Of a stretch of 64,000 nucleotides of DNA, positions 753 to 59,431 are shown piece after piece. A model generated the notes under the pieces. The model had not been told where the DNA came from. It ran no database searches and was given only the letters and a program-made list of their open reading frames with translations. The DNA lies in contig OX597820.1 in the NCBI GenBank assembly GCA_951406725.2, positions 12,524,001 to 12,588,000 of the forward strand, read 5' to 3'. Both the position numbers and the translations under genes were made by a program. Position 1 is the stretch's first letter, and every line of letters begins with the position of its first letter. This DNA is from Octopus vulgaris. Lineage: Eukaryota.

Positions 753-982
753 ATTTATTTAAGGGACACAATACATTTCTTTAAGAGCTGCTAATAGTTT
801 TATATGTTGGCAAATATCTCATATTCATCAGGTAAACACCACATATAACGTTTCTTCTCTTATTCAATTCTTTAGTTCCCTTATAATATGGATTTGTGCC
901 TGATGAATATGTTTAAGATACTTCTCAACATATGAAACTATTAGTAGCACTTAAAGACATATATTGTCTCCTTTAAATAAAT
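753..982. mobile_element. Penelope-like pseudo-LTR remnant as an inverted pair (fold-back)
   Basis: 753-832 is a diverged reverse complement of 899-982 (catattcatcagg vs cctgatgaatatg; atttatttaagggacacaat vs attgtctcctttaaataaat). Hammerhead plus AATAAA plus an inverted partial copy is typical of PLE ends. Confidence 0.7.
896..950 (+). ncRNA. Type I hammerhead ribozyme (minimal, Penelope-like pseudo-LTR type), canonical core
   Basis: Reads GTGC-CTGATGA-ATATGTT(13 nt)AACATAT-GAA-ACTA-T-TAGT-A-GCAC: helix I GTGC/GCAC, core CUGAUGA, 7-bp helix II, GAA, helix III ACTA/TAGT with 1-nt loop, cleavage triplet GUA (predicted cut after 946). AATAAA at 976-981, then a TA microsatellite. Confidence 0.85.
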
Positions 983-1269
983 GATGTATATGTATGTATG
1001 TATATGTATATATATATATATATATATATATATATATAGATAGATGGATAGATAGATACATACATAGATACATAGATACATAGATAGATACACCACCACC
1101 CTATCACACCAAACACCACACGCCACACACCACCATACCACACCACATCACACCACCCGGCACACACTAGTAGTAACCACTTCCCAGCACCTACGCCATC
1201 ATCCACACACCTACACATACACACACGCACAGGTCAATGTCACCATCCCTCTTCCACACGCACATACAC

Positions 1270-1565
1270 ACTCTCACATATATTACACACGCGCACCTTC
1301 GTTTTGGGATCAGCACTACTTTATTATCTACCCTTCTTCCTTGCTCTGCTGTGTCACCCCTCTGTTCGGCATTCGCCATGATAGGTCGCTAGCCACTAAA
1401 CCTTTCTCTATTTTCTCTCCCTGTTTATTTCTGTGTTCCTTTCTATCGACGAGTGTAGGCTCGCAACGTTAAATATTCTCTCATTTCCCGAGCGTTAAAA
1501 TAACGCATCTGTTTTTTGTTTATACACCCGTCTTCCTCTTTTGTTTTTTGTAAATTCTCACTATA
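1270..1565 (+). mobile_element. Non-autonomous repeat with CUGUUGA hammerhead-like motif, copy 1 (most decayed)
   Basis: Aligns by eye with 37810-37965 and 45840-46015 (gttcctttct...gagtgtaggctcg...ttcccgagcgttaaa...aaattctcact); ends in TA-rich sequence. Confidence 0.6.
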
Positions 1566-2257
1566 TATTTATATTCTTTTGAATAATAACAGTGAAATCT
1601 TCGAAATATATGTCGAAAGTAATACTATTTGATTTATACCTTCGTTAACCTCCATTTATTTATTTATATATCATACACAAACTTCCACGTAAACACGAAT
1701 TTTCTACCTTTAAAAACAAGGAGTTACAACCTCTTTACTTGTGTGATTTTTTGCTACCCTGGTAACTATTTATTTATTTTTTCCGTGTTAATTGTTAACA
1801 AGGCAAAAGTACACTCATGTATATATATATATATATATATATATATATATATATATATATATATATATATATAGGCGATTCATTGCGGTTCATTTAGCTT
1901 TCTTGTATGGGTTTGTTATATTTTTTTAAATAAGTTGTTTTTTATTGTGTGTATCAGTATATGTAAAATCATTTTATTTTTCAATTTATATATTTTGCAT
2001 TCACGTTTTACATTATTCGTTTATTTTTCTTCATCAATTTTGACGCTTTTCTTATAGGGACTGTGCATGTTTTATATTGTGTTAATATTTATAGGAATGT
2101 AGCACTTCAAAATAGTATTCATTGGTCCAACGGTCTGATATTTCTTTCTTTATTTGTGGCACTTGATGTAGGGGACGGCCCAGTTAATTCACATTGAATC
2201 TTCTGTGGGAAGATGTAAAACGCGTTATACATTTCATTCGCTATGAGTTCATACCAA

Positions 2258-2437
2258 ATCATCATCATCATTGTTCGACCGTGGTCGAGACAATGGAATT
2301 TACCATGCTACACCAGACTTCACGGTCCATCATGGCATTACGGAGGTCCTGTTGCTGGATGCCTGTATCCCTGGAGATTACATCAGGGTAGGAGAGTGTG
2401 CGCCCTCTGGTATTGCGAGTAGATGGCTTCCAGAGCC
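2258..2437 (-). mobile_element. RTE-clade LINE 3' end fragment
   Basis: Minus-strand translation WKPSTRNTRGRTLSYPDVISRDTGIQQQDLRNAMMDREVWCSMV* resembles the RTE ORF C-terminus (RGRP...Y.D.......AM.DR..W), followed by a (TGA)n tail. Confidence 0.75.
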
Positions 2438-2602
2438 AAAAGTAAATCATACCAAAAGTATGATACGAAATTCTAAATATGTCGTGATCTGGACCACTAT
2501 TTTTGTAGCTCTTTGATGTTTTAATGGATACGGGTAATTTGTTGTAAACAAGTGTCTCTTATATTTTACATTCATTTTATTTAATTTTGCTTATCTGTCA
2601 TG

Positions 2603-55803: not shown

Positions 55804-56294
55804 TAGATATGTTTCGACCAAAGATTGGTCCAGGCCATGCCTAACTTAATAGCACCACCTGATAGGATTATTTGAATCCTGTTTAAGTCAAGTTTTGTTT
55901 ATGGTCCATTCAAGTAGTGAGTTTTTGTTGGGTGAGTTGTATCCAATAATAGGTGTCTTATCCGGTATTCCTTGAAGAAATCTATCCAGACTCCGGTTAA
56001 AGTTGATGGGATCTTTTTCCTCTTTGATCTCTTTCTGGACAATGTTAAACAGGGCAGGGCCTGTTGCGGAAAAGAAATTATGTTGCAGTGTACCTATATG
56101 AATTGGGCAGGGGACGTATGACCCATGGACCCAGCCTTGGATGAACCTTGAAACTAATGTTCAGGTCGTTTGTGCAAAGTTGGCGGTATATTCTCCACAT
56201 CGTACAAATGATGTACCGCTCGCGGTGGCGCTGGAGAGAGTAGAGTTTCAATGCTTTAAGGCGGTCCCAATAATCGAGTGCTGTCATGCCTTCA
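55804..56294 (-). mobile_element. CR1/L2-group LINE 3' end, copy 2
   Basis: [22 protein letters not shown] (Y..RL..L.L.SL..RR motif); clearly homologous to 53135-53577. Confidence 0.88.
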
Positions 56295-57870
56295 TATATA
56301 TATATATATATATATATATATATATATATATATATATGTATGTATGTATGTATGTATGTATGTATGTATGTATGTATATATATATATATATACATATTTG
56401 TATAAATATATGTATAAATACATATGTATACAATATATATATATATATGTATACATATATGTATTTATATACATATGTTTATATACGCATGCATGCATAT
56501 ACATATACATATTTATATACATATGTTTATATACGCATGCATATACACGTGTATACATACACGTATGAATGAATATGCATATATATGCGTGGGTCAAATG
56601 AATTATCTTTTTTACAAGCTCCTTTTTAATTTAATATTCATTACGTTAGAATTTTGTACCCGCTTCGTTAATTTGATACACAACCTGTTATAATTTGACA
56701 TAAACATCGTTGATTTTATATAACTTATTTTTACCTTTTGATATACATTTCATTAGTTTTATATATAAGCTTTTAAAATCTGTAAACTTGCATGCTAGAG
56801 AGTATTCCATTGATAATGGGTTTAAAATTATGTGGATAAAAGCAAATGCGTATGACATAACTAAAAGAACCAAATAATGGAAATCGAATTGTTCATTTTC
56901 TTAAATACTTATATTTATATATAATTTCTTGTAAGTTAGTCTGTTAAAATATTAACTATTAGTACATACGCGCAGAGATATGCTTTCAAAAATGTACAAC
57001 ATATATAAAATACACTGAAATATACATACACACACACATATATATGCAAATATGTATTTATAAATTATATATATATATGAACATATGTATATACATACAT
57101 TTATATGTTCATATATATATATATGTAGACACAAACATACATGTATATATATATATATGTATATGTATATACATATATACATATATACATATATACATAG
57201 TTATTTATATATATCATACATAAATACCTATATCCATATATGTATGCACACACACACACACACACACACAAACACACGCATATATATATATATATATATA
57301 TATATATATAGATAGATAGATATATAGATATATATTAATACTTATTGGTAATGCATGCTCCAAGAGAGGAAGAGTAGGATTCGAGAAAGAAATATCTTTT
57401 TTCATTGTTAATATGCGCAATATATAAGTACAGAGGCATACATAATTACAAACACGCAGAGCAAAGAACAAAAAAAGGAAATATGGACATATTGTCATAC
57501 ACACATAAAAATAACTGATAGCCAGCCAAATCCATGGATCGATACGTCACTGAAAATGATGTGAGAAGGGGCAGGTAGGGAGGTTGATGTAGTGCAATGA
57601 CTGCAATACAGACAAACATCTGTGAAATGTTAGATTCGCGGTATTATGGACAAAAGAAATTTAAGAAAATAAGTGGTAGTCATGGGTATAAATTCGCACA
57701 CATTAAGGTGTAGATAAACTGATAATATACACATGGTCATATATAGACACATACACATACGCACACACGCGTACACACATATAATGATACACATAGATAC
57801 CTACTTATATAATTGTTAACAAGGTAAAAATACGCTCATCTATTTATATATATATATATATATATATATA

Positions 57871-58016
57871 CTAGAGTAAGCACATAAATGCGAAATGAGG
57901 TAGAAAAAATAGTACTCGAATACCGGAGGCAGAGCAATATGGATATCACAAAAACTGTTACTCAGAGTTTCACGTTCTCCGAACGTGAACCTCTGAGTAA
58001 CAGTTTTTTGTGATAT
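57871..58016 (-). mobile_element. Second copy of the 55061 family, also fold-back
   Basis: gagtaagcacataaatg...agtactc...aggcagag shared with the first copy; arms 57943-57977 and 57981-58016 with a 3-nt loop. Confidence 0.8.
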
Positions 58017-59135
58017 ATTTGATGATTTTTATTAGTGTATGTATGTATGTATTTTATATATATAAAGATATGTACACATAGTGGATATGCGTATATATAG
58101 TATTACCCAAATACATGACATGCATAGTGATATCAAAATGCATGCGCGTACCTGTGTATGTGTGAATGCGTGTCTCGTAAGCGTGTCTCAGCACATTACG
58201 TAAATTTGCATATATATATATATATTAAACTCTGTACATTTTTCACAATTGTATTTATTATGTAAACCCAATATTGATTTCTCTTTACCCGGTCATAATT
58301 CAAACAGCGGGTGATAAAAGATTGAACAAATACTGTTGTACCTGTTCAATGTCTTAATCACCTTTGTAGAAATTTAAATATATAGATAAAACTGATGTAA
58401 TTTTTGTTCGACCTGCTTTTTTCTTTAATCTCATTATAGTTTGCCTAAATTATCTGCTAGATATATTCTGATAATCAACTAAATCATACACACACACACA
58501 TGTATGTTTATATATATATATATATATATATATATATATATATATATATATATATATATATATATATATATATATATATATATGTGTATATATATATATA
58601 TATATATAAATGAAAAGAATGGAGTCGAACGAAGATTTTAACAAAATTCCTTTACTTTCGACATATGTTTTGTAGACTGCATACTCTTAATTACGAGGGA
58701 ATGAAGGTTGCATTATGCTGTGTTCTCATCAGGAAATACAAGGAACCTCTATCTATATATATATATATATGTATATATATGCATATATATATATGTGTGT
58801 GTGCGTATGTGTGTATATATATATATGTATATTTATCTATCTATCAATCTTTATATATATATACATATATACATATACATACATGCATGTGTATATATAT
58901 ATATATATATATATTTACCTAATATGTAAATGTCGATTAGTGTGTTGAAGTGCTGAGTAGAATAATAGCACAGTTTGGGCTATCTGGTGTCATCCGCAGT
59001 CGGGGTATATTTCCGTTCGATCTACTTCAGGAATTCCGCAGTGTTACTTGAGATAATAATAACAACAATAATAATAATAATAATAATAATAATAATAATA
59101 ATAATAATAATAATAATAATAATAATAATAATAAT

Positions 59136-59431
59136 TTTTTAAATATCAAGAAGATGGATTTGGTACTGAACTTTATTTTGTACAACGGTCGCTTCGACCC
59201 ACCCTGTTACTGTTCTTTATGGGTGGGACTCCTTTCCACATGTGTTGCATCAATTCTGCAGTCTGGATCTCATCAGGGTCGTTTATACATAAAAGATTAT
59301 GTCTCTCTAAAATCCTACGTTTTGCCTGTCATGTTGTTATACGCCCGTCTCTTTAGACGTTCCTGATGGGACCCAAACTGCAAAATTGATGCAACACATG
59401 TGGGATGGTGTCTCACCCACAAGAGACCGTA
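59136..59431 (-). mobile_element. Penelope-like pseudo-LTR with extended-stem-II hammerhead remnant and inverted partial copy
   Basis: Minus strand: CTGATGA-GATCCA-(about 60 nt)-TGGGTC-GAA-GCGACCGT-T-GTAC...AATAAA; arms 59208-59277 and 59362-59431 are inverted; flanked by (AAT)n and (ATT)n. Confidence 0.65.

What the first reader, a model, noticed from the sequence alone, without database searches (positions are those of the whole stretch)
753..59431. Recurrent architecture: microsatellite-anchored fold-back mini-elements built from hammerhead-bearing ends of several unrelated families
Seen: four loci from three sequence-unrelated families (753-982; 55061-55267 and 57871-58016; 59136-59431) share one layout: about 150-300 bp, no coding sequence, a hammerhead motif (partial at 57871), an inverted partial copy of the same ribozyme segment, and microsatellite flanks; three also show AATAAA after the ribozyme. 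Known: PLEs often insert with inverted 5' truncations. Inference: each insertion pairs a ribozyme with its own antisense strand, so a read-through transcript should form long dsRNA that competes with ribozyme folding, a built-in off switch that could make intronic copies tolerable. It would also be an ADAR substrate in a lineage with very high A-to-I editing. The density in 64 kb implies a very large genome-wide population of variant hammerheads, which may be uncatalogued in this lineage.
Basis: partly seen in the sequence, partly recalled or inferred. Interest (0 to 1): 0.72.

Follow-up and report, generated by a model that had tools for sequence, protein, structure and literature searches.

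The report
Head-to-head Hydra-clade Penelope retroelement stumps
These four hairpin-shaped stretches are short, decaying, back-to-back ends of three Penelope-type jumping-gene families in a layout already published, likely left by the element copying its RNA from both cut DNA ends rather than acting as a ribozyme off switch.

Summary
The four fold-backs are real, but they are ordinary insertions of Penelope-like retroelements (PLEs). All three families trace to ORFs with Hydra-clade endonuclease marks; two also show RT. Opposite-strand hammerhead pairs, the inverted truncated copy, the one-sided tail and (TA)n targets are published. Only 2 of 8 window arms hold an intact hammerhead; two boundaries and two 'flanks' were misread. 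The off-switch idea is not supported: arms differ by 9-16%, as neutral decay predicts; inverted arms do not track copy age; copies show no A-to-G excess. Intron bias and RNA editing could not be tested. Of use: 24 of 27 fold-backs carry exactly one tail and none two, and 9 of 19 inverted arms hold sequence their partner lacks, which favours priming from both DNA ends on a sense RNA over the published antisense self-priming. Family B 5' ends pile up at the hammerhead base. This scan noted the same layout and twin-priming reading on other DNA of this genome (e1-9911825, e1-9916036, e1-9940365).

The parts
687..985 (.). Locus 1, family A insertion: two pLTR arms head to head, one with tail, between TA-rich runs
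896..950 (+). Intact type I minimal hammerhead motif (stem I GTGC/GCAC, CUGAUGA, 7-bp stem II, GAAA, GUA)
   Evidence: descriptor hit; alignment of 30 copies
687..846 (-). Family A inverted arm with decayed hammerhead, AATAAA (754-759) and tail (about 687-752)
55061..55211 (-). Locus 2, family B long arm: hammerhead, AATAAA (55136-55141), tail (55061-55134), ending in (TA)n
55167..55204 (-). Intact type I hammerhead motif with C at position 4 of the core (CCGACGA), the family norm
55214..55276 (+). Family B inverted arm, starts at the core (no 5' stem I strand), no tail
55012..55021 (+). 10-nt copy of the family B tail end facing the locus 2 tail across the (TA)n run
57871..58029 (.). Locus 3, family B (variant subfamily): arms 57871-57977 (-, with tail, 19-nt deletion over AATAAA) and 57981-58029 (+); neither holds the CUGANGA core
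58915..59357 (-). Locus 4, family C long arm: 79 nt upstream, decayed hammerhead (59180-59280), AATAAA (59172-59177), internal expanded ATT run (59053-59135), tail (58915-59052), ending in (TA)n
59362..59431 (+). Family C inverted arm, cut off inside stem II at the neighbouring TAA run
59430..59720 (-). 3' end of another retroelement (ORF end QKIALLSTAHILRRTLSIQ, 3' UTR, (TAA)n tail); not part of the PLE. R4/Dong-like is a recalled label, not tested
   Evidence: 96% to a copy in L086

Best explanation
The four loci are 5'-truncated, back-to-back ends of three Hydra-clade Penelope-like retrotransposon families that are decaying without upkeep of the hairpin, and the layout likely arises because both DNA ends at the cut site prime copying of the element's RNA. 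Shown: family identity, two fixed outer ends (just after AATAAAG and at the tail end), one tail per fold-back, TA targets, independent decay. Inferred: the endonuclease cuts both strands in (TA)n; each 3' end primes reverse transcription at one of two internal start sites of the sense RNA; both copies stop early (in family B mostly within about 25 nt of the ribozyme base) and their ends are joined, often at short palindromes or microhomologies. In any read-through transcript the antisense arm would be made first and would mask ribozyme and poly(A) signal, as a by-product.
For: Family A copies run from RT motifs through a CxCX5C linker and GIY-YIG-type endonuclease without CCHH into the same hammerhead and tail; family B L154 runs from endonuclease through about 1.3 kb of 3' UTR to the hammerhead; family C L230 is pLTR-hammerhead-tail-ORF with the RWK motif, RT and endonuclease. 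These are the Hydra marks of PMC8557442 section 11. Tail on exactly one arm in 14 of 14 family-B and 10 of 13 family-A fold-backs, two tails in 0 of 27. In 9 of 19 tail-selected family-B pairs the inverted arm reaches more than 10 nt further 5' than its partner, and in 5 the tail arm stops at +52 to +63, where the other arm begins. In vitro a PLE protein cuts and extends both strands and starts at two sites bounding the tail (PMC11167929). Microsatellite starts within 12 nt of 18 of 27 family-B ends against 10% of random window positions. Arm differences 131/1486, 88/698, 66/403 sites, about twice each arm's distance from the family majority.
Against: The mechanism rests on genomic footprints only. 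In vitro the two strands showed no difference in start site, so the one-tail rule is not explained by that paper. Both arms usually overlap, which needs strand displacement or two RNAs. Family B arms share 36 derived bases against 9.7 expected: mostly a linked subfamily haplotype, but some are copy-private and could come from self-copying or conversion. No intact ORF was found for any of the three families, no RT part for family B, and no tree was built. Samples are best-score hits, not random.
Confidence: 0.85

Rival explanations
1. Selected off switch: the antisense arm silences the ribozyme in host read-through RNA, so fold-back copies are tolerated in introns and kept.
For: The hairpin is predicted far more stable than the ribozyme fold; head-to-head geometry puts the antisense arm first on either strand; contigs of runs guessed to be RNA cover unique flanks of locus 3; Penelope in lizard and palindromic repeats in frog are heavily edited and octopus is rich in dsRNA (PMC5625713).
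Against: Arms drift apart at the neutral rate and copies with and without an inverted arm are equally old (P 0.30, 0.59, 0.20); the inverted-arm share falls from the young family (14 of 30) to older ones (13 of 30 and 9 of 30); single minimal hammerheads did not cleave in vitro (PMC4209133); 6 of 8 window arms have no intact ribozyme; A>G is not above T>C in any family.
Confidence: 0.05
2. Self-priming or fold-back copying: one cDNA or an antisense RNA folds back and copies itself, and the endonuclease resolves the hairpin, leaving a tail on one side (PMC3846280; PMC8557442).
For: Junctions often sit on palindromes such as TTAA and inner ends of the two arms are often close (-31/-34, -35/-28, -11/-14); some copy-private bases are shared by both arms.
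Against: Pairs in which each arm holds sequence that the other lacks (9 of 19; e.g. L161 with arms +63..+141 and +5..+69) cannot come from one arm copying the other.
Confidence: 0.15
3. Non-autonomous retrozyme- or MITE-like mini-elements that move as whole fold-back units.
For: Family B copies are young and short: 40 of 40 hits identical over 68 nt of tail; 18 of 30 start within 20 nt of the ribozyme.
Against: Junctions differ from copy to copy; copies form a continuum up to ORF-bearing lengths; no tandem monomer arrays were seen in these three families.
Confidence: 0.05

Closest known systems
Hydra clade of C-terminal EN+ Penelope-like elements, incl. Hydra-1_Obim and Hydra-2_Amil (Craig et al. 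2021, PMC8557442; passages, sections 11 and 20, supplement searches)
   Same: CxCX5C linker, no CCHH, DKT and RWK motifs, canonical hammerhead in the pLTR, (TA)n targets, inverted truncated copy, tail at one end. The record listed before Hydra-1_Obim (Hydra-2_Amil by order and translation) has the same stem I and nearly the same stem III loop as family B with a different stem II.
   Different: Five short motifs of families A-C were not found in the supplement text (line breaks could hide a match), and the Hydra-1_Obim hammerhead is different, so these look like further families. Tails are longer (about 55, 74 and 150 nt against 30-40) and 3' UTRs of B and C exceed 1.3 kb.
Minimal type I hammerheads of metazoan PLEs (Cervera and De la Pena 2014, PMC4209133; parts 1-2 of 4 read)
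   Same: Short stem I, palindromic stem III loop, thousands of dispersed single motifs, and dual motifs 100-700 bp apart on opposite strands assigned to truncated PLEs.
   Different: Family B carries U4C as its norm (a variant with lower in vitro activity, PMC3088659 passage); family C has a stem II insert of about 65 nt.
Poseidon PAc of the green anole (Frangieh et al. 2024, PMC11167929; parts 1-2 of 4 read)
   Same: Two internal reverse-transcription start sites bounding the tail, AT-rich targets, both strands cut and extended, uncleaved RNA as template.
   Different: Other clade; the paper saw no strand difference in start site and did not describe how the two arms are joined.
Adineta vaga Penelope inverted pLTRs (Arkhipova et al. 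2013, PMC3846280; passages)
   Same: Head-to-head inverted pLTR, palindromic junctions, tail on one arm.
   Different: Explained there by self-priming on an antisense template, which non-nested arm pairs here do not fit.

Membership tests
EN+ Penelope-like element | PLE-type RT followed by C-terminal GIY-YIG endonuclease linked to the repeat | tested here: met
   A: L094, L099; C: L230/L221. B: endonuclease and linker only, L154. All broken. The reference ORF L143 scores only E 0.013 to Pfam GIY-YIG, so the link rests on tblastn and motif match to the Hydra alignments.
EN+ Penelope-like element | pLTR with fixed 3' end and optional tail that is the start of the element body | tested here: met
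   Two fixed ends in all families; tail runs into the ORF in L230 (family C only).
Hydra clade | CxCX5C linker, CCHH absent, DKT and RWK motifs, (TA)n targets | tested here: met
   Linker and no CCHH in A, B, C; DKT in A; RWK in C; TA ends.
Hydra clade | Placement in an RT phylogeny | not tested
   No tree built; similarity to Hydra-1_Obim judged by eye.
Neptune clade | CX2-5CxxC linker and CCHH motif inside GIY-YIG | tested here: not met
   No cysteines between the two core motifs in A, B or C; my first label, withdrawn.
Type I hammerhead ribozyme | Core nucleotides and three stems | tested here: met
   2 of 8 window arms; family majorities of A, B, C all fit.
Type I hammerhead ribozyme | Covariation of stems | tested here: inconclusive
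   Family A: 94.6% of cells paired, 0 pairs with change on both sides, not above shuffles, as expected of dead copies of one master. Stems differ between families while keeping pairing, but those hits were picked by a pairing descriptor. B and C were not run through the pair count.
Type I hammerhead ribozyme | Self-cleavage | not testable with these tools
   Needs an assay; Rfam gave no hammerhead row among the 150 best rows shown of 419.
Non-LTR retrozyme | Tandem head-to-tail monomers each with a hammerhead, no ORF | tested here: not met
   No such array at the four loci; families continue into ORFs. Definition from 10.64898/2026.07.22.740005, part 1 of 5.

The most novel reading that the evidence does not exclude
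PLE insertion is twin-primed on a sense RNA: the two DNA ends use one start site each, and in family B both copies run off at the RNA's own 5' end just upstream of the hammerhead, like strong-stop DNA of LTR elements. This would replace the antisense self-priming model, and the thousands of resulting hairpins would be a by-product source of dsRNA for ADAR in this animal.
Probability: 0.45. Interest if true: 0.55.

Novelty: new member of a known kind. Interest (0 to 1): 0.22.

Why it matters
As a thing, it is known PLE debris. Its use is as a footprint: how PLEs make tandem and inverted copies is called undefined in PMC8557442, and the one-tail rule, the non-nested arm pairs and the family B stop zone give countable tests between twin priming and antisense self-priming. 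The three families also look absent from the one Hydra catalogue I could search, and hairpins of this kind may add to the high dsRNA load reported for octopus.

Tried and rejected
Rfam scan: only miRNA-model hits on microsatellites among the rows shown. Neptune label: withdrawn. A universal stop at the ribozyme base: strong in B only; among copies holding the ribozyme, 5' ends within about 25 nt were 18-22 of 30 in B, 9 of 29 in A, 5 of 30 in C; the -26 cluster was partly a deletion in the reference copy. Tail marks short copies: rejected, 6 of 20 long B copies have tails. A spliced front end or cap-G at the B stop zone: no AG acceptor in the majority sequence and too few clean junctions. Extended stem I in B: subfamily changes do not compensate. 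Host gene: no convincing exon among ORFs of 80 aa or more (27229-27522 minus strand unresolved; short exons would be missed), so intron orientation was not testable. One search was meant as a ribozyme-only query but was the tail; with the right stretch returned nothing (very common words are skipped). PDB search empty. Lunse et al. (PMC5785218) not held; known only through the review passage. Rows dropped before counts: L177 and L166 from the 19 tail-sample pairs (microsatellite or unclear match), L159 and L075 as duplicates, reference copies L050, L076, L200; 13 of 30 family C copies were left out of alignment A2.
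Full report
Setting. The window is G000:C7:12524001-12588000 in a 2.80-Gb genome of 227 contigs; an octopus is inferred from size, microsatellite load and likeness of its PLE proteins to Hydra-1_Obim. Tandem repeats are dense (127 rows). No host exon was recognised.

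Observation. Self-alignment confirms inverted arms at all four loci and shows that 55061 and 57871 are one family. A type I hammerhead descriptor finds two motifs, 896-950 (+) and 55167-55204 (-), and none in 50 shuffles. The other six arms are decayed or cut.

Identity. Searches of the own genome gave 30 loci each for B, A and C. All read: ribozyme, AATAAA, a fixed end, an optional tail, then TA-rich DNA. Walking upstream reached endonuclease ends in A, B (L154) and C, RT motifs in A (L094, L099) and C (L221), and a partial-tandem C copy in which the tail runs into the ORF start with the RWK motif (L230). Linker CxCX5C, missing CCHH, DKT, RWK and (TA)n targets are the Hydra marks in PMC8557442 section 11. 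The same geometry exists at kilobase scale: L144 has two family A ORF ends facing outward, one with tail. All ORFs seen are broken; no tree was made.

What is in print. PMC8557442 describes the inverted 5'-truncated copy, the tail at one end and microsatellite bias as typical (passages). PMC4209133 reports dual minimal hammerheads 100-700 bp apart on opposite strands and ties them to truncated PLEs; single motifs did not cleave. PMC3846280 describes head-to-head pLTRs and proposes antisense self-priming (passages). PMC11167929 shows two internal start sites bounding the tail, both strands extended, and no need for ribozyme cleavage. PMC2377424 shows that Penelope transcription starts in the upstream pLTR (passages). 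Searches for Penelope with twin priming and inversion listed 3 papers, none on PLE mechanism by title and abstract start; a five-term search listed 1 review; octopus genome with hammerhead ribozyme listed 0; hammerhead, Penelope, octopus listed 4. Subscription papers and bioRxiv supplements were not searched.

Numbers. The exact 34-nt family B motif occurs 378 times (194 forward, 184 reverse; control 0). About 304 kb of flanks held 6 descriptor hits, each of a different sequence, against 0-1 in 10 shuffles, about 20 per Mb (7-43); flanks of PLE hits may be enriched. The same flanks held only 2 extra B copies and no A or C ribozyme ends, so four loci in 64 kb is above average for these families. 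Inverted arms were found in 14 of 30 genome-order B copies, 13 of 30 A copies and 9 of 30 C copies (long inverted arms such as L083 and L077 were missed there).

Mechanism. Exactly one tail was scored in 14 of 14 B and 10 of 13 A fold-backs, two tails in none; two of the three scored without tail show a diverged tail by eye. Independent choice would give one tail in about half (inference). In the tail-selected B sample 9 of 19 inverted arms reach more than 10 nt further 5' than the tail arm, and 5 tail arms stop at +52 to +63, where the other arm starts: the pattern of two primers on one RNA, not of one arm copying the other. In B, 16 of 19 inverted arms end between +11 and -23 and none between +12 and +31; 18 of 30 genome-order copies end between 0 and -20, 4 between -21 and -42, 8 beyond -100. 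A and C lack so sharp a zone. Run-off at an RNA start is my preferred, untested cause; a stall at the ribozyme or joining at the TTAA palindrome are rivals.

Off switch. The full hairpin is predicted at -99 kcal/mol against -44 and -56 with the ribozyme fold enforced (loci 2 and 1), and geometry puts the antisense arm first on either strand, so masking in a read-through RNA is likely. But arms differ at 8.8% (B), 12.6% (A) and 16% (C) of shared sites; shared derived bases match chance in A (4 against 2.9) and nearly in C (8 against 4.6) and exceed it in B (36 against 9.7), mostly as a linked subfamily haplotype; identity to the family does not differ with and without an inverted arm; A>G equals T>C in A and C and is lower in B. 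Family A shows no covariation within. RNA evidence is thin. Editing of such hairpins remains plausible: lizard Penelope and a palindromic frog repeat are heavily edited, and octopus has much dsRNA (PMC5625713, passages).

Earlier scan notes. None near this window or on this sequence, but 857 notes in this genome fit 'hammerhead Penelope' and several reach the same reading on other DNA. I had the twin-priming reading; the pointer to the Hydra clade and to PMC3846280 came from those notes and was then checked.

Verdict. Real feature, new members of a known kind, interest 0.22.

Noticed in passing
window 55012-55021; L114 just 3' of the pLTR end: A tail end faces another family B end across a (TA)n run (tail to tail), perhaps re-insertion beside an existing copy.
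   Followed up: no
L033, L051, L081, L024, L129, L134 flanks: Six further hammerhead families; three of them also have C at core position 4, so U4C recurs in this genome.
   Followed up: no
family A and B tails: The tails share a 19-nt stretch around GAGTACT(C)TTTTTT (E 0.003), a possible protein-binding or priming signal.
   Followed up: no
window 27229-27522 (-): 98-aa open frame rich in S, K and E that could be a host exon.
   Followed up: no
L149 reverse strand 2000-2459: A fold-back of yet another PLE family holding an endonuclease end, next to the family C copy.
   Followed up: no
L143 1189-3198 (-); A young related Hydra-type family with open frames up to 670 aa in many copies; a candidate source protein for in vitro work.
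   Followed up: partly
window 57943-58016 and L191, L199, L205, L213: A family B subfamily (linked changes at +34, +41, +48, +59) always present on both arms of a pair, so both arms come from one source.
   Followed up: yes
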